A stretch of DNA of 64,000 bases from an uncultured Candidatus Saccharibacteria bacterium (GTDB taxonomy: Bacteria > Patescibacteriota > Minisyncoccia > Phycocordibacterales > Phycocordibacteraceae): contig CAZQGQ010000002.1 of the NCBI GenBank assembly GCA_964593365.1, positions 85,671-149,670 of the forward strand. The letters run 5' to 3'. Positions 1,801 to 51,585 of the stretch are shown piece after piece. Under the pieces are notes generated by a model. That model saw only the letters and a program-made list of their open reading frames with translations, was not told the origin of the DNA and did not search any database. The first letter of the stretch is position 1. Each line of letters begins with the position of its first letter. The position numbers and the translations under genes were made by a program.

Positions 1801-2523
1801 TCAGTTGAAGCGATAGCGGCCGCCAAAATAGACGGCGTCCACCACCTGGTCCGGGTCGGTGTCCGGGATCGGAGCAGGAACAGCGTTTCCGTTGTTCCCG
1901 AGCGAGGTGATCACTCGCCCGAAGTCAGTGTGCCGATAGCTCAAGTCGAAGGCCCACTGATCAGTAGCGTTGTATTCGATGCCCGCGCCGTACGTTGGCG
2001 CGGTATCGTCGAGGGTGGCATACCGCTCGTAGCCGAAGTCGCCGCCGTTCAACGAACAGTGGCTGCCTGGCGAGACCGGAAATGCGACGGCGCGTCTGAC
2101 GCACGTTTGGGAGATTTCAGCCTCCCGCTGCGTCAGGCCGGCCGTCACATAGGGCATGAAGCGCCCCAATGACCACCCAGCAACGACTTCACCGGTGAGC
2201 AGGCTCCGAAGCCATGCACACTGATCGATGAAGTTTCCATCGTCTTCACAAGCCGACAACTGTCCGGCGGCGTAGCTTACGCGAACGCCGAGAACAAAGT
2301 TGTTGTCGAACTGGTGGTTGTAGCCCACAGTAATACCGGCGAACGCCCCGCTAAGATCGGGGTCAGGCTTTCCACCGGTGTAGGTGATCGGCGCCGACAC
2401 GCCGACCATATCCGCTCCAACATAAGGTCCTTGATGGCTTTCGACATCTTGGGCCCACGCAGGCGCTGAAGCCGTCATCATGATGGCCGCAACTGCAACT
2501 GAACCGAAAATTGCACTTTTCAT
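1801..2523 (-). CDS. Outer-membrane beta-barrel protein (OmpA-like/Omp25-Omp31 porin family) with Sec signal peptide
   Basis: N-terminus MKSAIFGSVAVAAIMMTASAPAWA-QD. The body has alternating amphipathic strands rich in G/Y/V/A, and the C-terminus is ...GGRYRFN, as in the OMP_b-brl / opacity-protein family. Confidence 0.55.
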   Translation of the reverse strand: MKSAIFGSVAVAAIMMTASAPAWAQDVESHQGPYVGADMVGVSAPITYTGGKPDPDLSGAFAGITVGYNHQFDNNFVLGVRVSYAAGQLSACEDDGNFIDQCAWLRSLLTGEVVAGWSLGRFMPYVTAGLTQREAEISQTCVRRAVAFPVSPGSHCSLNGGDFGYERYATLDDTAPTYGAGIEYNATDQWAFDLSYRHTDFGRVITSLGNNGNAVPAPIPDTDPDQVVDAVYFGGRYRFN

Positions 2524-5034: not shown

Positions 5035-5451
5035 CTAGGGTGAACACTTCTCGCAGGAGCAGCCTTTCGGCTTGATGTAATCGTTCCAGTATTCCTTGCC
5101 GTAATCGTAGGAAAACTCTTCTCCTTCCTTGATTTTGCGCCGTGCCATCACAAAGACGCGCTTATTGCGTATCTCAATCTCGCTGTTAGGCCGGCAGGAG
5201 TGGTTTATGTAGCGCGCGGTATTAGAGCGCATGGTTCCGTCTATGGTCTTTCGCTTGTTCACCTCGAACAGATACTTACTTCGGCTCGTATACACCTCCT
5301 CGCTTGAGATGGTGCGTCCCTTGTATTCGATGATGCAAGCGCCTTTCGGTATCTCTTCCCCGGCAAAAAGCCCAAGCCCTGCATGTGAGCGCTTCACGAC
5401 CACCTTAAATCCCCCTGGGACAAACTTCCCTTTCCGTTTAGTGCGCGGCAT
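5035..5451 (-). CDS. SET-domain protein (putative protein lysine methyltransferase)
   Basis: 138 aa. SET motifs are ARYINHSCRPN, EEFSYDYG and a post-SET Cys cluster CSCEKC. The N-terminus is very basic: PRTKRKGKFVPGG. It sits 4 nt downstream of the GH18 gene on the same strand. Confidence 0.8.
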   Translation of the reverse strand: MPRTKRKGKFVPGGFKVVVKRSHAGLGLFAGEEIPKGACIIEYKGRTISSEEVYTSRSKYLFEVNKRKTIDGTMRSNTARYINHSCRPNSEIEIRNKRVFVMARRKIKEGEEFSYDYGKEYWNDYIKPKGCSCEKCSP

Positions 5452-19545: not shown

Positions 19546-19668
19546 TCCACAGGACACGCATCGACATTGCTTTTTGGTGATTTGTGTCCCATACTTGGAC
19601 TAACTCGCAGGTTTCAAGAGGCTTCGGCAGTTCGGTATCGGCGAGAACTTAAAAAATCACGTTCACGC

Positions 19669-20043
19669 ATGGCTAATACCAAGTTGTACGTCGGAGGCAT
19701 CCCCTACCGCACGACCGAAGATGAGATGCGAACCGCCTTTGAAGAGGCCGGAGCAGTCACATCAGCAAGCATTATTATGGACCGCATGACGGGCCGCTCA
19801 CGAGGTTTCGGCTTCGTTGAAATGGCTGACGAAGCGGGAGCCCAGGCAGCTATCGACCGCTGGGACGGCAAGGAATTTGATGGGCGCACGCTCTCAGTTT
19901 CCTTTGCTCGCCCTCAGGGTGATCGCCCTCCTCGCGAAGGCGGTGGAGGTGGCAGTCGCGGAGGTTTTGGCGGCGGTAACCGCGGAGGCGGCTACGGCGG
20001 CGGAAACAACGATCGCGGAGGCTACCACAGCGGAGGCTACTAA
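19669..20043 (+). CDS. RNA-binding protein with RRM domain and Gly-rich C-terminal tail
   Basis: RNP2 LYVGGIPY and RNP1 RGFGFVEM, followed by a GGGGSRGGFGGGNRGGGYGGGN tail. Start at the internal Met MANTKLY. Confidence 0.85.
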   Translation: MANTKLYVGGIPYRTTEDEMRTAFEEAGAVTSASIIMDRMTGRSRGFGFVEMADEAGAQAAIDRWDGKEFDGRTLSVSFARPQGDRPPREGGGGGSRGGFGGGNRGGGYGGGNNDRGGYHSGGY

Positions 20044-46848: not shown

Positions 46849-49056
46849 TTATTTTGCTACCTGCATTGCCTCTTCGAACTTGACTGAGAGGAGCTTGCTG
46901 ATGCCGTCGCCTCCCATAGTGACGCCGTACAAAATACCTGCACGACCCATGGTCTCGCGGTTGTGCGTGATAACGACGAGCTGCGAGCGCTTGGAGAGGC
47001 TATCGATCATGTCTCCGTAGCGGCGCGAGTTAGCTTCGTCGAGAGCCGCGTCGGTCTCATCAAGGATCAAAAATGGCGGCGGATTCACCTGGCTCATCGC
47101 GAAGATGAGCGCGATTGAGGTAAGTGCGCGCTCGCCTCCTGAAAGCTGCATAAGAGACTGCAGCCGTTTCTTAGGGAGATTCACCTGCACCTCAAGGCCA
47201 GGGCGTACCTCTCGCTGTACTTCTTCTGGAGCTTCGTCTTCTTCGTCCTCTTCAGCAGGAGCGATATCCTCAAGCACGAGCTTTGCTCCTCCTCCCCCGA
47301 ACATGAGCGCGAAGAACTCGGTAAACGATTCGTTCACCTTCGCCAGTCCTTCCGCAAAGTTCTTCGCAAGCTCCTCATCAAGATCGCGAATCAGCTCCTC
47401 GAGGCCGATGACTGAGTTGGCAAGATCTTGAAGCTCGGTAGCAAGGAACTCCTCGCGGTTCTTGGTTTCCATATATTCGCTTCGCACTTCTTCTCCGGTG
47501 CCTCCCGCCTCTTCAAGACGAATCTTCAGGCGCTCAAGGGTTCGCTTGCGGTCTTCTTGCACTTTGCGGTCTTCCTCGGGAAGTTCAGACAGCGGCTCGT
47601 ATGAAAAGGCTTGGCTTCCGGCAAGCGCGAGTACTTCTGCTCGCTCGCGTTCAAGCTCCTCGCCAAGGTAATTTAATTCTTTGATTCTTGCTTCAATGCG
47701 CGCGAGTGAAGATTCGAGCTTTGCGCGCGTTTCTGCAAGCTCAAGTATTCGGTGCTGATTCTCACGTCCGGTCTCCTCATGCGCCGTGCGCTCCTCGCGT
47801 GCCTTAGCAAGCACCTTCCGCGCTTCCTCTACGCGAAGCGCTATTGCGCGATCTTTATCTGAAAGCGCCTCTCGCTCTTTCTCAAACTTCTGCACGGCCT
47901 GCTCCTCATCTGCAAGATAGTCGCTCTCGCTTGCCCCATAGCGGTCAAAGAAGGCCATGACCGCAGAGCGAAGCGCTCGAAGGGCTGCAGAGAATGCGGA
48001 GATATCTGCTGTTTCAGACAGTGCGGTCTGTCGCTCTACTTCGTCTTTGAGGACCTTCAGGTCTTCGCGCGGGACTTTCACATACGGCTCGCGGGCTAGG
48101 AGTGCACTGCGACGCTTGGCCTCAGACAACGCTCCTTCAATACGACCCATGTCTCGCGAGAGATCGGACTGTTCTGCGATTGCACGATCAAGCTCGCGCT
48201 CTGCCTGGCGCACAGCTTCAATGCGCTTCATTCCTTCGCTCTCTCCCGTCGTCTCTCGCTCAAACACTGAAATTTCTTGCTCGGCAACAGCAAGGCGCGC
48301 TGACGTGTCGCGTTCCTCAGCTTCAGTCTTTACCCGCTCTACCGCAAGGTATTTTTCTTCTATTGCAAAGTATTCGCGCGCGGAGCCTGCAAGGTCTCGC
48401 CCGAGCTCTTCTGCGCGCTCCAACTTCTCTACCTGCTTCTGCAAGAACTTCAGGTGCGGAGAAAGTTCCCGACGAAGGGCTTCTACTTCCCGTACGTTGT
48501 CGCGAGTCTTATCGAGCTTTCGGATCGCTTCCTGCTTCTTGAATTCAAAGACCTTAAGGCCGAGCGCGTCCTCGAGCATGGCTCGGCGCTCACGCGGAGC
48601 TGAAAGCAAGATACGATCCGCTTCTCCTTGAGAAATGATGTGGTGACCGGTCTCGCCGATGTTTGCGGAAGCGAGGAGTTCCTGGATATCGCGGAGGCGA
48701 ACCTTGGAACCGTTGATGGAGTACTCGCTTGCTCCGTCTCGGAATACCGCACGCTCTATCTGTACCTCGTCAAAATCGATCTTAGGGAAGATGCGCTTGG
48801 TGTTATCAAAGATGATCACTACCGATGCACGGTTCGCGCGAGGGTTCGTATGTGAGCCCGCAAAAATAAGATCCTCGCTTCGCTTGCCGCGCATGCTTTT
48901 CATGGATTGTTCGCCAAGCGCGAAGCGGAAGGCTTCTGCGACGTTTGATTTACCTGAACCGTTAGGGCCCACAATGGCAGTAGCTGCCGACGAGAAATCG
49001 AGCACGGTTTTCCGTGCGAACGATTTGAACCCGACGACTTCAAGCCGCTTCAGCAT
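46849..49056 (-). CDS. smc: SMC-family ATPase, short form (approx. 736 aa, no recognisable hinge domain)
   Basis: SMC N-terminal head MLKRLEVVGFKSF...GPNGSGKSN, a long coiled coil, and a C-terminal signature LSGGERALTSIALIFA plus Walker B FLILDETDAALD. The track ORF extends to 49491, but the true start is the internal Met at 49056, with a -10 TATAAT 7 nt upstream. Confidence 0.8.
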   Translation of the reverse strand: MLKRLEVVGFKSFARKTVLDFSSAATAIVGPNGSGKSNVAEAFRFALGEQSMKSMRGKRSEDLIFAGSHTNPRANRASVVIIFDNTKRIFPKIDFDEVQIERAVFRDGASEYSINGSKVRLRDIQELLASANIGETGHHIISQGEADRILLSAPRERRAMLEDALGLKVFEFKKQEAIRKLDKTRDNVREVEALRRELSPHLKFLQKQVEKLERAEELGRDLAGSAREYFAIEEKYLAVERVKTEAEERDTSARLAVAEQEISVFERETTGESEGMKRIEAVRQAERELDRAIAEQSDLSRDMGRIEGALSEAKRRSALLAREPYVKVPREDLKVLKDEVERQTALSETADISAFSAALRALRSAVMAFFDRYGASESDYLADEEQAVQKFEKEREALSDKDRAIALRVEEARKVLAKAREERTAHEETGRENQHRILELAETRAKLESSLARIEARIKELNYLGEELERERAEVLALAGSQAFSYEPLSELPEEDRKVQEDRKRTLERLKIRLEEAGGTGEEVRSEYMETKNREEFLATELQDLANSVIGLEELIRDLDEELAKNFAEGLAKVNESFTEFFALMFGGGGAKLVLEDIAPAEEDEEDEAPEEVQREVRPGLEVQVNLPKKRLQSLMQLSGGERALTSIALIFAMSQVNPPPFLILDETDAALDEANSRRYGDMIDSLSKRSQLVVITHNRETMGRAGILYGVTMGGDGISKLLSVKFEEAMQVAK

Positions 49057-49071
49057 TGAGGCAATTATACC

Positions 49072-49116
49072 GTATATAAATGTGTTGACGCGCGCCCGTA
49101 TCAGGTAGCGCGCGTC
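49072..49116. repeat. 45-bp element containing a perfect inverted repeat GACGCGCGC-N12-GCGCGCGTC (copy 1)
   Basis: It lies between the end of small membrane gene 49146..49460 and the SMC promoter. The sequence is gtata-aaa-gtgttgacgcgcgcccgtatcaggtagcgcgcgtc. Confidence 0.8.
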
Positions 49117-49145
49117 TAAATCACCGTGAGGTGATGGGTGCCGTC

Positions 49146-49460
49146 TTAGGCGTATCTTGTTGGTTTCATCATAAAGCTGATGAGACCGACAAATCCCAAC
49201 AATACGGCGACTGCGGTGGTAATCGTCGTCAGAAGGCTCCAGTGGACGAACTGCGTGTGGGTGTCCTGGAATAGAAACACCGTAGCCCACATGATCAGGG
49301 CTGCCGCCGTCATGATGCAGCGCGAACCGCGAGGCCATCCGAAGCGAACTCCGAATCGCTCCGCGACAAGCACTACAAAGACAACGACAGTCGCCGGAAC
49401 CGCGAGCAGCAGCGCGAACTGAACTTCTAACGGAGAAAACGTGAAGAACGTTTGGGTCAT
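49146..49460 (-). CDS. Small membrane protein (3 TM), paralog A
   Basis: 104 aa with SD AAGGGG. It is similar in length and topology to the 49631..49915 ORF. Confidence 0.5.
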   Translation of the reverse strand: MTQTFFTFSPLEVQFALLLAVPATVVVFVVLVAERFGVRFGWPRGSRCIMTAAALIMWATVFLFQDTHTQFVHWSLLTTITTAVAVLLGFVGLISFMMKPTRYA

Positions 49461-49565
49461 CGGTTGTAAGCCCCTTGCTCTCGTACCGCACGAGAGCCTC
49501 GTTGAGGACTATGACACTAACAGCCGTCTTTGTCTAATTCAGTATAAATCGGTTACGGATATGCA

Positions 49566-49610
49566 GTATAGAAACGTGTTGACGCGCGCCCGTATGAGGT
49601 AGCGCGCGTC
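49566..49610. repeat. 45-bp palindromic element (copy 2; 41/45 identical to copy 1)
   Basis: gtatagaaacgtgttgacgcgcgcccgtatgaggtagcgcgcgtc, located about 20 nt downstream of paralog B. Confidence 0.8.
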
Positions 49611-49630: not shown

Positions 49631-49915
49631 TTATGCCGGCCCGTATTTTCTCCACCATCGAAGCACGAGGCACCCGATGAAATAGAGCATGGCCAAGCCG
49701 AACAGTGTGGTCCCGATGTCCCACGGTTTATAGTCAGTCCAAGCGGACTCGAACAGACATGCCACAGAACCTGCGGAACACGCCGTCGCGAGAAAGAACG
49801 CTTGAAGGATTGGCTTACGCCGCTCCATCGCCGCCATCAGAAGAGCAATGCCTCCGATGATGGCAACCAACGCAACCGTGAGAATAATAACGGGTTCGGA
49901 CGAGAATATCGTCAT
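49631..49915 (-). CDS. Small membrane protein (3 TM), paralog B
   Basis: ATG start at MTIFSSEPV (the track start 49942 is a GTG). Confidence 0.45.
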   Translation of the reverse strand: MTIFSSEPVIILTVALVAIIGGIALLMAAMERRKPILQAFFLATACSAGSVACLFESAWTDYKPWDIGTTLFGLAMLYFIGCLVLRWWRKYGPA

Positions 49916-49968
49916 GAGTGTTACCCCATACCTCTGTACCACACAGAGGCTTCGAAAGAACTATAACA

Positions 49969-50652
49969 CTACCATCCGCTCTTGTCTAGTCCGGCCTGGG
50001 CCGCTGCTTGTTCCGCTTCCTGCTTGCTCTTCCCTACCCCTCGAGCGATCTCCTTCTCACCTATGTAAACGCCAACAGTGAAATCGCGGTCATGGTCCGG
50101 ACCGTCTTCGCGGATCGTCTTGTATGCAGGAGTGATTCCCTTATGTTCCTGCGCTGCTTCCTGGAACTTACTTTTCGCATCCTGCCACGCGCGCGCCTCG
50201 ATGACCGGATCGAGCTTCGGGAACAAATGCTTTATGAGAAAGGCGTCAGCAGCTTCATATCCCTGATCAAGATAGAGGGCGCCAAGCAATGCCTCGAAAG
50301 CGTTTGCGAGAATGATCTGACGAGCACGTCCCGTGTCGCGCTTTTCCCCGCGCGAGAGAAGCAGCATGTCATTGATCCCGAGCTTCTCGGCAGTCTCTGC
50401 AAGCGAGACGGTATTCACAAGAGCCGCACGAAAGGCAGTCAGTTCTCCCTCCGGCTTTTGCGGAAACTTCGTGAAAAGAAACTGGGTCGCGGAGAGCTCG
50501 AGCACGGCATCCCCCAGAAACTCAAGCCGCTCGTTATGCGCCTTCGAGCTCTTGTTCTCGTTCAGGTAGGAGCGGTGCGTCAGCGCCTCCTCGAAGAGGT
50601 CGAGGTTAGAAAAAGTGAGCCCGAGCTTTTGCGCACACGCATTAAAATCCAT
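49969..50652 (-). CDS. rnc: Ribonuclease III
   Basis: RNase III signature ERLEFLGDAVLEL and a C-terminal dsRBD. Confidence 0.9.
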   Translation of the reverse strand: MDFNACAQKLGLTFSNLDLFEEALTHRSYLNENKSSKAHNERLEFLGDAVLELSATQFLFTKFPQKPEGELTAFRAALVNTVSLAETAEKLGINDMLLLSRGEKRDTGRARQIILANAFEALLGALYLDQGYEAADAFLIKHLFPKLDPVIEARAWQDAKSKFQEAAQEHKGITPAYKTIREDGPDHDRDFTVGVYIGEKEIARGVGKSKQEAEQAAAQAGLDKSGW

Positions 50653-50685: not shown

Positions 50686-51585
50686 CTACTTTCCCGAGCG
50701 GTCGAGCAGTTTCTGGACCGCGGTCGTCACTATGGGGAGCATGTCGTCGTAGAAGTTGAGGTTGATGATGTCTTGGAGCCTAAACCACTTGGCGTCGTCT
50801 AGGCCACCCTTCCCTTCTTCAAGCTTCAGCGGGATGTACTCGGCTTTGGCAAGGAAATACGTCACGTGCTTTCGGAACTTTCCTTTCTCCGGGTGCGAAG
50901 CGACGTATTCGTTCTCTCCGATCACATCCTCAAGGATGATATCGATTCCCATCTCTTCCTTTATTTCCCGCACCGTTCCTGCAGACAGTTCCTCCCCTTC
51001 CCACAAGCGTCCCTTAGAGAGAGTCCAGCGGCCAAACACATCGTGTACCAAGGCAAGGTAATACTGGCCTTCGTGGAAAGAATAGACGACTGCGCCGCCA
51101 AGCTCCTCAACCGGAAGCTCCTTGTGCGGCTTCTTCTCGCGCTTCCCTTGCTCGTCTTTGCCCGGGCTTCCGATTTCCTTATAGACGGCACCAAGCACTC
51201 CGTTAATGAATCGTCCGGATGATTCTCCGCCAAACACCTTGGCAAGCTCAATGGCTTCGTTAATGGCTACTTTAGGTGGAACCTGCGCGCGGTCTGAGAA
51301 CAAAAGCTCGTACAAGCCGATGCGAAGAATGTTGCGGTCGATAGCTGCGATCTTTTCAATGGGCCACTCAGGAGCGGCTTTCGCGATGATAAGGTCGAGA
51401 TCAGTTTTCTTGGCGATCACGCCCGTAAGGAGGTTTTCCATAAACGGCCGATCCGTATCGCTTCCCCCGAACTCTCCGAAGTTTCGCGCAAGCGCCTCGG
51501 GAGCATCGGTATCGGGTACAGCGGCTGTGTCCCACTCGAAGAGCGTTTGTAATACTACCGAACGGGCGAGATGCCGATTAGCCAT
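50686..51585 (-). CDS. nusB: NusB-like antitermination domain fused to a C-terminal NUDIX hydrolase domain
   Basis: The N-terminal approx. 150 aa form a NusB fold (RNILRIGLYELLF...). The C-terminal domain has a complete Nudix box, GRLWEGEELSAGTVREIKEEMGI. Confidence 0.8.
   Translation of the reverse strand: MANRHLARSVVLQTLFEWDTAAVPDTDAPEALARNFGEFGGSDTDRPFMENLLTGVIAKKTDLDLIIAKAAPEWPIEKIAAIDRNILRIGLYELLFSDRAQVPPKVAINEAIELAKVFGGESSGRFINGVLGAVYKEIGSPGKDEQGKREKKPHKELPVEELGGAVVYSFHEGQYYLALVHDVFGRWTLSKGRLWEGEELSAGTVREIKEEMGIDIILEDVIGENEYVASHPEKGKFRKHVTYFLAKAEYIPLKLEEGKGGLDDAKWFRLQDIINLNFYDDMLPIVTTAVQKLLDRSGK

What the first reader, a model, noticed from the sequence alone, without database searches (positions are those of the whole stretch)
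46849..49056. Short SMC-like ATPase with no recognisable hinge domain
The true ORF starts at the internal Met (MLKRLEVVGF...), not at the track start, and encodes about 736 aa. It has an N-terminal Walker A head, about 400 aa of near-continuous coiled coil, and a C-terminal head with the canonical SMC signature (LSGGERALTSIALIFA) and Walker B. A canonical SMC is about 1150-1200 aa with a central globular hinge of about 150 aa. I see no hinge-like glycine-rich globular segment here, only a short break in the coil near residues 440-500. That gives either a minimal hinge or a RecN/SbcC-like fold-back architecture that still uses SMC head motifs.
Basis: partly seen in the sequence, partly recalled or inferred. 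Interest (0 to 1): 0.55.

Follow-up and report, generated by a model that had tools for sequence, protein, structure and literature searches.

The report
Half-length SMC protein without a hinge
This gene encodes a chromosome-organising SMC ATPase from an ultra-small (CPR/Patescibacteria) bacterium whose dimerising hinge domain and about half of each arm are replaced by a small four-helix cap, and it belongs to a large, conserved family that tests what an SMC motor really needs.

Summary
The gene is window 46849-49056 (minus strand), starts at ATG (MLKRLEVVGF) and encodes 735 aa. Its heads are plainly bacterial Smc (B. subtilis Smc head E 2e-90; all ATPase motifs intact). No hinge is detectable by Pfam, by a profile search of PDB sequences, or in AlphaFold models.

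One detail needs correcting. The real turn-around is at 323-376, a confidently modelled (pLDDT 93) two-helix insert that caps the arm as a four-helix tip.

This is not an accident. At least 388 homologues (663-782 aa, down to 41% identity, Parcubacteria/Paceibacterota labels) share the design, the arm length is almost invariant, and the rnc-smc gene order of canonical smc is kept. Forty-five relatives carry a single CxxC(G)Q motif at the same tip, like a Rad50 zinc hook, so the tip is probably the dimerisation site.

It most likely is the genome's only condensin-type Smc. I could not test ScpA/ScpB, a second SMC, or cap dimerisation. A "hinge-less SMC" clade was reported from marine Actinobacteria in 2025. 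I found no description of this family, its cap or its hook variants.

The parts
46849..49056 (-). Short hinge-less smc gene: 735 codons plus stop, ATG start at 49056
   Evidence: Homologues of 725-776 aa align from residue 1. Pfam SMC_N spans 1-720.
48556..49056 (-). N-terminal half of the ATPase head (res 1-167), including Walker A GPNGSGKS at 48946-48969
   Evidence: Residues 2-208 are 45% identical to B. subtilis Smc over 207 aligned positions.
48091..48555 (-). N-terminal strand of the coiled-coil arm (res 168-322, 155 aa, about 23 nm), with a minor break at 270-271
   Evidence: AlphaFold helices 168-269 and 272-322. The neck (168-215) is nearly as conserved as the heads, and the distal part is poorly conserved.
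48127..48162 (-). Conserved motif LSRDMGRIEGAL (res 299-310; h-G-R-h-E-G-x-h, a GxxxG pattern) about 20 residues before the tip
   Evidence: G304 is conserved in 221 and G308 in 224 of 243 helical-apex homologues. The GRLEG motif is also present in the hook-type relatives.
47929..48090 (-). Apex cap (res 323-376): loop EPYVKVP, helix A (330-348), helix B (352-374). It replaces the hinge.
   Evidence: Apex-only AlphaFold model has pLDDT 93.2. The hydrophobic pattern is conserved in 243 sequences, with V328 and F369 100% hydrophobic. No Pfam or PDB-sequence relative. No Foldseek match below E 0.3.
47299..47928 (-). C-terminal strand of the arm (res 377-586, 210 aa), including the joint
   Evidence: AlphaFold helices 377-479, 497-517 and 522-586.
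47491..47619 (-). Joint discontinuity in the C-terminal strand (res 480-522).
   Evidence: Aligns to the head-proximal segment of B. subtilis Smc. Best structural match is 5xei, Smc head plus coiled coil plus joint, E 4.5e-23. Conserved in the family.
46852..47298 (-). C-terminal half of the head (res 587-735): signature LSGGE (47131-47145), Walker B FLILDE (47056-47073), and a variable acidic loop at res 598-616
   Evidence: It is 50% identical to B. subtilis Smc over 114 positions. The loop is variable.
49969..50652 (-). rnc (RNase III), the conserved upstream neighbour of smc
   Evidence: The order L32 - NusB/NUDIX - rnc - smc is kept in all related loci whose contig reaches upstream of smc (about 24). 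rnc-smc adjacency is also seen in a Mycoplasma locus with a canonical SMC.
49082..49116 (-). 35-bp inverted-repeat element just upstream of the smc start. A second copy lies at 49576-49610.
   Evidence: 2 matches against 0 expected. Sequence context. Its role (hairpin terminator of the small ORFs, or operator) was not tested.

Best explanation
This is most likely the organism's single condensin-type Smc, in a shortened form that has lost the hinge.

Shown. Each chain has a complete Smc-type ABC ATPase head (res 1-167 plus 587-735), and a conserved neck and joint. The head-proximal arm segment has an almost fixed length, and the N-terminal strand as a whole is about 155 residues (roughly 23 nm against roughly 47-50 nm in B. 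subtilis). The chain turns at residues 323-376, where two extra helices pack with the ends of the two arm strands into a small four-helix cap. No alpha/beta hinge is present.

Inferred. Two chains are joined permanently at this cap, in the way a hinge or a Rad50 zinc hook would join them, and transiently at the heads when ATP binds. This would make a small rod or ring that loads on DNA and organises a chromosome of about 650 kb, probably together with a kleisin such as ScpA. The main reason to place dimerisation at the cap is that 45 close relatives with the same arm length have, at exactly this position, a single CxxC(G)Q motif. One such motif cannot bind zinc alone and would need a second chain.
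For: - Heads: B. subtilis Smc head E 1.9e-90, against Rad50 at about 1e-9. NCBIfam SMC_prok_B is the top family by far at 530.9 bits, with recN at 41.5 and Rad50 at 57 or less. All catalytic motifs are intact.
- No hinge: (positive control).
- Fold-back architecture: full model, apex model at pLDDT 93.2, and head plus joint match to 5xei.
- Real, selected family: the 120 closest hits are 68-100% identical and 119 of them are 725-776 aa. The best 150 of the 50%-identity cluster representatives are almost all 660-782 aa (three are shorter fragments) and mostly align in one full-length stretch. Across 288 aligned homologues the total length is 663-782 aa, median 740.
- Arm length: the N-strand from the head to the GxxxG motif has a median of 141 aa (IQR 140-141), although distal arm residues are only about 27-30% conserved.
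- Cap: its hydrophobic heptad pattern is conserved across 243 sequences.
- Positional orthology: rnc-smc adjacency is conserved in about 24 related loci and in a Mycoplasma locus with a hinge-bearing SMC.
- Hook relatives: 45 of the 388 retrieved proteins have CxxC at the tip, and it is usually the only pair of cysteines in the protein. Their N-strand is 142 aa.
- Small genome: the same genome is assembled as contigs of 646,682 and 658,957 bp.
- Literature: replacing the B. subtilis hinge by the P. furiosus Rad50 zinc hook gives a functional Smc, and short arms work in specific length classes. Natural arm-length modes are 238, 341 and 515 aa, with minor ones at 163 and 423 (PMC5344682).
Against: - Cap dimerisation is not shown. 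No multimer prediction was available. The monomer model is confident on its own, so the hydrophobic residues could be buried within one chain.
- The window protein has no cysteine, so the hook argument works only by analogy.
- ScpA and ScpB were not found in the window or in the 10 kb on each side. The rest of the genome could not be read.
- A second SMC elsewhere in the genome is not excluded.
- The NCBIfam score is below the curated Smc cut-off.
- Similarity of the CxxC region to the Rad50 hook is sub-threshold: Pfam E 0.005-0.03 in 3 of 29 sequences, and PDB 1L8D at E 4.6.
- The full-length model is only moderately confident (pLDDT 75.6, pTM 0.43).
Confidence: 0.55

Rival explanations
1. 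The cap is only a monomeric closure of the arm. The protein pairs solely through ATP-engaged heads, perhaps bridged by a kleisin. It would then act as a clamp or sensor on DNA with two free arms, not as a ring closed at the far end.
For: The apex is modelled confidently as a single chain (pLDDT 93.2). Its conserved hydrophobic positions fit an intramolecular four-helix bundle. The protein has no cysteine or other obvious cross-linking motif. The cap has no structural relative among known dimerisation domains.
Against: Relatives with the same arm length have a half-site CxxC at the tip, which implies pairing of two chains there. The near-invariant arm length is easier to explain if the two arms must align along a rod. 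Every studied SMC, Rad50, RecN and MukB joins its arms distally (established knowledge; PMC5344682).
Confidence: 0.2
2. It is a paralogue with a repair or defence role (RecN-, SbcC/Rad50-, Lamassu- or MADS-like), and sits beside a canonical full-length Smc encoded elsewhere in the genome.
For: The architecture (heads plus a short fold-back coil with no hinge) resembles RecN and SbcC. The PADLOC mad3 model hits at 2e-60 and LmuB at 3e-21. Most of the genome could not be inspected.
Against: The heads are far closer to Smc than to any of these families. The gene sits in the conserved housekeeping rnc-smc position, with no nuclease, SbcD or other mad/lmu genes nearby, in about 24 genomes. The genome is only about 650 kb. 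Smc duplication in prokaryotes is stated to be undescribed (PMC12153180). The mad3 model covers only the head halves.
Confidence: 0.1
3. The arms do not fold back within one chain. Two chains pair antiparallel along their whole length, giving a dimer with a composite head at each end.
For: A monomer prediction cannot exclude this. The cap helices could serve as a central junction.
Against: AlphaFold folds the chain back on itself, and the head plus neck plus joint match solved Smc fragments, in which both strands come from one chain. Intramolecular folding is established for SMC, Rad50 and MukB.
Confidence: 0.05
4. It is an artefact: a truncated, chimeric or decaying smc gene from a metagenome assembly.
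For: The database gene call for this very locus is wrong at its 5' end (880 aa).
Against: The same architecture and length occur in hundreds of independent assemblies from several sources. The reading frames are intact, the catalytic motifs are invariant and the synteny is conserved.
Confidence: 0.01

Closest known systems
Bacterial Smc of Smc-ScpAB (B. subtilis Smc; NCBIfam TIGR02168 SMC_prok_B)
   Same: Head sequence (45-50% identity), all ATPase motifs, conserved neck and joint, intramolecular antiparallel arm, and gene position directly downstream of rnc.
   Different: It has no hinge domain. The arm is about 155-210 residues per strand instead of about 344 (PMC5344682). The total is 735 aa instead of about 1186. 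The score is below the curated family cut-off. Its partners are unknown.
Engineered B. subtilis Mini-Smc and Smc(Zh), in which the hinge is replaced by the P. furiosus Rad50 zinc hook (Burmann et al. 2017, PMC5344682)
   Same: Smc heads are joined to a shortened arm and a non-hinge tip. The hook-type relatives look like natural counterparts of Smc(Zh). The arm length falls near the minor natural mode at 163 aa reported there.
   Different: These are natural proteins, conserved across a large clade. The window protein uses a helical cap, not a hook. Function has not been tested.
Rad50 / SbcC
   Same: Heads plus a fold-back coiled coil without a hinge. Relatives of the window protein carry a CxxC at the tip.
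   Different: Head similarity is weak (about 1e-9 to 1e-16). The window protein has no cysteine. No Mre11/SbcD gene is nearby. Hook similarity is sub-threshold even in the CxxC relatives.
'Hinge-less' SMC clade from ocean metagenomes assigned to Actinobacteria (Sussfeld et al. 2025, PMC12153180)
   Same: SMC-type heads, no hinge, no CxxC, apparently the only SMC in its genomes, and abundant.
   Different: It is a different lineage (Actinomycetes against Patescibacteria labels). That paper describes no cap, no hook variants and no arm-length constraint.
RecN
   Same: A short SMC-like ATPase whose fold-back coiled coil ends without a hinge.
   Different: The recN model scores 41.5 bits against a cut-off of 407.85. 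RecN is about 550 aa. The gene context here is that of smc, not of recN.

Membership tests
Bacterial Smc (condensin-type, TIGR02168 / Pfam SMC_N + SMC_hinge) | Bipartite ABC ATPase head with Walker A, Q-loop, signature LSGGE, Walker B and H-loop, closest to Smc heads | tested here: met
   B. subtilis Smc head E 1.9e-90, with 45-50% identity.
Bacterial Smc (condensin-type, TIGR02168 / Pfam SMC_N + SMC_hinge) | Central globular hinge dimerisation domain (PF06470) | tested here: not met
   No hit at E<=1, while a Mycoplasma SMC control scores 1.9e-25. A mid-region profile finds no hinge structure in the PDB. The models show only helices.
Bacterial Smc (condensin-type, TIGR02168 / Pfam SMC_N + SMC_hinge) | Whole-protein score at or above the curated equivalog cut-off | tested here: not met
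   530.9 bits against a cut-off of 567.35, in two stretches that skip the middle of the model.
Bacterial Smc (condensin-type, TIGR02168 / Pfam SMC_N + SMC_hinge) | Intramolecular antiparallel coiled-coil arm with a head-proximal neck and joint | tested here: met
   AlphaFold model. Foldseek best hit is 5xei, head plus coiled coil plus joint, E 4.5e-23. The arm is only about half the usual length.
Bacterial Smc (condensin-type, TIGR02168 / Pfam SMC_N + SMC_hinge) | Genomic position of smc (rnc-smc linkage) | tested here: met
   conserved in about 24 related loci and in the Mycoplasma control locus.
Bacterial Smc (condensin-type, TIGR02168 / Pfam SMC_N + SMC_hinge) | Works with kleisin ScpA and kite ScpB | not testable with these tools
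   None found in the window or in the 10 kb on each side. The rest of the roughly 650-kb genome could not be read.
Bacterial Smc (condensin-type, TIGR02168 / Pfam SMC_N + SMC_hinge) | Constitutive homodimer joined at the end of the arms | not testable with these tools
   No multimer prediction was available. This is inferred only from the CxxC relatives.
Rad50 / SbcC | CxxC zinc hook at the coiled-coil apex | tested here: not met
   The window protein has no cysteine. 45 relatives do have an apical CxxC, but their Pfam Rad50_zn_hook matches are sub-threshold.
Rad50 / SbcC | Rad50/SbcC-type head, with an adjacent Mre11/SbcD nuclease gene | tested here: not met
   Rad50 models score 57 bits or less against cut-offs of 700 or more. 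No nuclease gene among the neighbours.
RecN | Score above the cut-off of the recN model (TIGR00634) | tested here: not met
   41.5 bits against 407.85.
Defence-system SMC-like ATPases (Lamassu LmuB, MADS mad3, Gabija GajA) | Full-length match plus the system's partner genes in the neighbourhood | tested here: not met
   The mad3 hit (2e-60) covers only the head halves, and LmuB scores 3e-21. The neighbours are housekeeping genes in conserved synteny.
Hinge-less SMC clade of marine Actinobacteria (PMC12153180) | SMC heads, no hinge, no CxxC | tested here: met
   Searches compared with the description. This is an architectural match only.
Hinge-less SMC clade of marine Actinobacteria (PMC12153180) | Membership of that monophyletic clade | not testable with these tools
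   No sequences of that clade were available. The taxonomic labels differ.

The most novel reading that the evidence does not exclude
A large Patescibacteria lineage (the genomes labelled Parcubacteria/Paceibacterota) runs its chromosome with a minimal SMC that has neither a hinge nor long arms. Its two chains would be joined by a previously undescribed four-helix cap. In some sub-lineages the cap has been exchanged for a Rad50-like zinc hook, which would make those proteins natural SMC-hook chimeras. If so, the hinge, including its proposed role as a gate for passing transcription obstacles, would be dispensable for a working bacterial condensin, and the tip module would be freely exchangeable in evolution.
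Probability: 0.45. Interest if true: 0.75.

Novelty: new variant of a known kind. Interest (0 to 1): 0.62.

Why it matters
The hinge is part of the textbook definition of an SMC protein. It has been assigned roles in dimerisation, in DNA binding and loading and, recently, as a selective gate that lets the motor pass RNA- or ssDNA-tethered obstacles (PMC12647877). That paper also notes that SMCs with channel-less hinges tend to have much longer arms.

This family does the opposite. It has no hinge, and its arm is half the usual length and tightly fixed. It is conserved across a very diverse clade with tiny genomes. That makes it a natural counterpart to the engineered Mini-Smc and Smc(Zh) proteins (PMC5344682).

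At 735 aa it is also a compact candidate for structural and single-molecule work on what the minimal loop-extruding or DNA-entrapping SMC core is.

Finally, current curated models miss it. Database records for family members call it 'AAA family ATPase' or 'hypothetical protein' about as often as SMC.

Tried and rejected
- **Diverged hinge.** Rejected. There is no PF06470 hit at E<=1 in the window protein or in 5 diverse relatives, while a Mycoplasma SMC control scores 1.9e-25. A profile of the mid-region found only generic helical bundles in the PDB. Scanning 31 mid-regions one by one against Pfam found nothing consistent.
- **Apex related to a known dimerisation module (RecN tip, MukB hinge, Rad50 hook).** Foldseek of the confident apex model found nothing below E 0.3.
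- **Zinc hook in the window protein.** Rejected, because it has no cysteine.
- **Homology of the relatives' CxxC region to the Rad50 hook.** Only sub-threshold matches, so I call it hook-like, not a Rad50 hook.
- **RecN, Rad50, ASRP or defence-system membership.** Rejected on scores and gene context.
- **ScpA/ScpB.**
  - Pfam scans of 20 window ORFs of compatible size found none.
  - The Pfam tables of neighbouring genes in related and extended loci show none.
  - A motif scan for the ScpA N-terminal GPLDLL-type motif (recalled from memory) over 640 kb of fetched DNA found none.
  - This says nothing about the rest of the genome.
- **Single origin of the hook type.** A heads-only neighbour-joining tree splits the hook sequences into about 7 groups. 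The tree has no support values, so I draw no conclusion.
- **Literature.** Ten full-text searches found no description of this family. The nearest precedent is PMC12153180. The ABC-ATPase classification paper of Krishnan et al. 2020 is not held in the library, so I could not check it.
- **Unused.** The third large homology search and the metagenome scan. Neither can be restricted to this genome or clade, so neither would settle the open points.
Full report
**1. The observation**

The ORF listed mechanically at 46849-49491 (minus strand, 880 aa from GTG) contains an internal ATG at 49056 that yields a 735-aa protein beginning MLKRLEVVGF. Three results show that this is the true start.
- 119 of the 120 closest database homologues are 725-776 aa and align from residue 1. 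Only the JGI call of this same gene carries the extension.
- The extension overlaps a small membrane-protein ORF (49146-49460) in another frame.
- A TATAAT box lies 11 nt upstream of the ATG.

The protein has Walker A (GPNGSGKS, 30-37), a Q-loop, the signature LSGGE (638-642), Walker B FLILDE (662-667) and an H-loop.

Pfam places SMC_N across residues 1-720 (1.4e-67) and finds no SMC_hinge even at E<=1. NCBIfam puts SMC_prok_B far ahead of every other family, but in two stretches and below its cut-off (530.9 against 567.35). recN scores 41.5 bits and the Rad50 models 57 or less. Against PDB sequences the best hits are Smc heads (B. subtilis, 1.9e-90), and Rad50 is at about 1e-9. Identity to B. 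subtilis Smc is 45% over the N-terminal head and neck and 50% over the C-terminal head. So the short, hinge-less SMC is real.

**2. Anatomy**

An AlphaFold model built on 66 homologues (pLDDT 75.6) shows these elements, in order:
- head
- helices 168-269 and 272-322
- loop 323-329
- two short helices, 330-344 and 352-374
- helices 377-479, 497-517 and 522-586
- head

The best structural match of the full model is 5xei, 'Smc head domain with a coiled coil and joint' (E 4.5e-23). The discontinuity at 480-522 aligns with the head-proximal segment of B. subtilis Smc.

The chain turns at 323-376. A separate model of residues 285-400, built on 31 diverse homologues, is confident (pLDDT 93.2, pTM 0.64). 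It shows four helices: 286-322, 330-348, 352-374 and 377-399. That is the two arm ends plus a two-helix insert.

This tip has no detectable relative.
- A profile search of PDB sequences returns only generic or designed helical bundles, with E of 0.006 or worse.
- Pfam finds nothing consistent.
- Foldseek finds nothing below E 0.3, and no SMC or MukB hinge and no RecN tip.

The N-terminal strand is 155 residues, or about 23 nm. This length is my own conversion at about 0.15 nm per residue.

**3. A large, constrained family**

- The 120 closest proteins are 68-100% identical to the query.
- The best 150 representatives of 50%-identity clusters are 41-68% identical, almost all are 660-782 aa (three are shorter fragments), and most align in a single full-length stretch.
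- Source names, where given, are Parcubacteria, Paceibacterota, Kaiser-, Vogel- and Taylorbacteria and Patescibacteria. The product names are 'AAA family ATPase', 'hypothetical protein' or 'chromosome segregation protein'. 'Candidatus Paceibacterota' now maps to the phylum Minisyncoccota in the NCBI taxonomy.
- Conservation is uneven. The mean frequency of the commonest residue is 0.71-0.77 in the heads and 0.55-0.65 in the neck and joint. It is 0.27-0.30 in the distal arm and 0.23 in the cap.
- Arm length is nevertheless almost invariant. From the head to a conserved hGRhEGxh (GxxxG) motif the N-strand has a median of 141 residues (IQR 140-141) in 243 sequences.
- The cap keeps a strict hydrophobic pattern. 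Positions 328 and 369 are 100% hydrophobic, with heptad-like spacing in both inserted helices.

This is the signature of a folded, selected structure, not of a linker or a decaying gene.

**4. Relatives with a hook**

Forty-five of the 388 retrieved proteins have a shorter tip that contains one CxxC, nearly always CxxCGQ. Their median is 51 residues between the GxxxG motif and the first conserved C-strand position, against 81 in the other type. In most of them these are the only two cysteines in the protein. Several come from Vogelbacteria. Their arm length is the same, with a 142-residue N-strand.

A single CxxC supplies two of the four ligands a zinc ion needs. As in Rad50 and SbcC, this implies pairing of two chains at the tip. 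That step is my inference from established zinc-hook chemistry. Sequence similarity to the Rad50 hook itself is sub-threshold: Pfam E 0.005-0.03 in 3 of 29 sequences, and 1L8D at E 4.6. I therefore call these tips hook-like.

In a heads-only neighbour-joining tree the hook sequences fall into about seven groups. The tree has no support values, so the number of exchanges is open.

**5. Orthology**

The order L32 - NusB/NUDIX - rnc - smc is kept in every related locus whose contig reaches upstream of smc, about 24 loci. rnc also lies directly upstream of the hinge-bearing SMC in the Mycoplasma locus. This matches the classical rnc-smc-ftsY arrangement of Firmicutes, which is established knowledge. 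There is no nuclease or defence partner nearby. A strong PADLOC 'mad3' hit covers only the head halves and reflects general SMC-head similarity.

The same genome is assembled elsewhere as contigs of 646,682 and 658,957 bp, so the genome is about 650 kb. A published survey states that smc is single-copy in nearly all prokaryotes and that no duplication has been described (PMC12153180). Together these points make it likely, though not proven, that this is the genome's only Smc.

**6. Mechanism**

Shown:
- an intact Smc-type ATPase head
- a conserved neck and joint, which in canonical Smc is where the kleisin N-terminus binds and where head movements are passed into the arm
- a short arm of fixed length
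- a helical cap in place of the hinge

Inferred:
- Two chains are joined at the cap, by analogy with the hook-type relatives and with all other SMC-like proteins.
- They engage their heads on ATP binding and act with a kleisin on chromosomal DNA.
- The conserved GxxxG face near the tip, present in both tip types, may be where two helices cross closely, either between the two arms or within one.

Burmann et al. 2017 showed three relevant things in B. subtilis (PMC5344682).
- The fold of the dimerisation domain does not matter, because a Rad50 hook works in its place.
- Only particular arm lengths work.
- Natural arm lengths cluster at 238, 341 and 515 aa, with minor modes at 163 and 423.

Their pipeline required a recognisable hinge, so it would have discarded proteins like this one. 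The present arm is about 155-190 residues per strand, depending on where the boundaries are set. That puts it near their 163-aa class.

**7. What stays open**

ScpA/ScpB and a possible second SMC therefore remain untested. None lies in the window or in the 10 kb on each side.
- No multimer prediction was available, so cap dimerisation is not shown.
- The rival that the cap merely closes a monomeric arm keeps substantial weight.

**8. Novelty**

Ten full-text searches found no description of a hinge-less or hook-bearing SMC in Patescibacteria. The nearest precedent is Sussfeld et al. 2025. They report an abundant 'hinge-less' SMC clade, without CxxC, from ocean metagenomes assigned to Actinobacteria (PMC12153180). 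The concept is therefore published for another lineage. I did not find this family, its cap, its fixed half-length arm or its hook variants in the searchable literature.

A 2025 study proposes the hinge as a gate for obstacle bypass and notes that SMCs with channel-less hinges tend to have longer arms (PMC12647877). This family breaks that trend.

I rate it a new variant of a known kind, with moderately high interest.

Noticed in passing
window 49082-49116 and 49576-49610 (minus strand): Two copies of a 35-bp element, GACGCGCGC-TACCT(G/C)ATACGG-GCGCGCGTC-AACAC, with a perfect 9-bp inverted repeat. Each lies just downstream of one of two small three-TM-like ORFs (49146-49460 and 49631-49942). 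The first copy sits directly upstream of the smc start and its TATAAT. It could be a hairpin terminator, an operator, or a duplicated gene-plus-hairpin unit.
   Followed up: partly
window 46849-49491 (minus strand): The public gene call for this locus (P0001, 880 aa from GTG) is over-extended by 145 codons and overlaps the small membrane-protein ORF in another frame.
   Followed up: yes
related proteins P0154, P0271-P0305 and others (e.g. Candidatus Vogelbacteria): A subfamily of the same short SMC carries a single CxxCGQ at the coiled-coil tip, usually the only cysteines in the protein. These look like natural SMC heads on a zinc-hook-like apex.
   Followed up: partly
window 50686-51585 (minus strand): A NusB-NUDIX fusion protein, conserved immediately upstream of rnc-smc in all related loci that extend that far.
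   Followed up: no
window 1801-2523 (minus strand): A 240-aa protein with an outer-membrane beta-barrel domain (PF13505, 7e-16). This is unexpected in a CPR bacterium, a group generally thought to lack an outer membrane.
   Followed up: no
window 5035-5451 (minus strand) and 19567-20043 (plus strand): A SET-domain protein and an RRM_1 RNA-recognition-motif protein, both eukaryote-typical domains, in this small genome.
   Followed up: no
loci L003, L004, L006, L008, L012, L025, L027: MAGs with the same synteny and a 69-82% identical short SMC are titled 'Candidatus Saccharibacteria' or 'Bacillota' in their records. The taxonomic labels of these bins are probably wrong.
   Followed up: no
window 47209-47265 (minus strand; protein residues 598-616): An acidic, highly variable loop (APAEEDEEDEAPEEVQREV) is inserted in the C-terminal head. 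B. subtilis Smc lacks about 15 of these residues.
   Followed up: no
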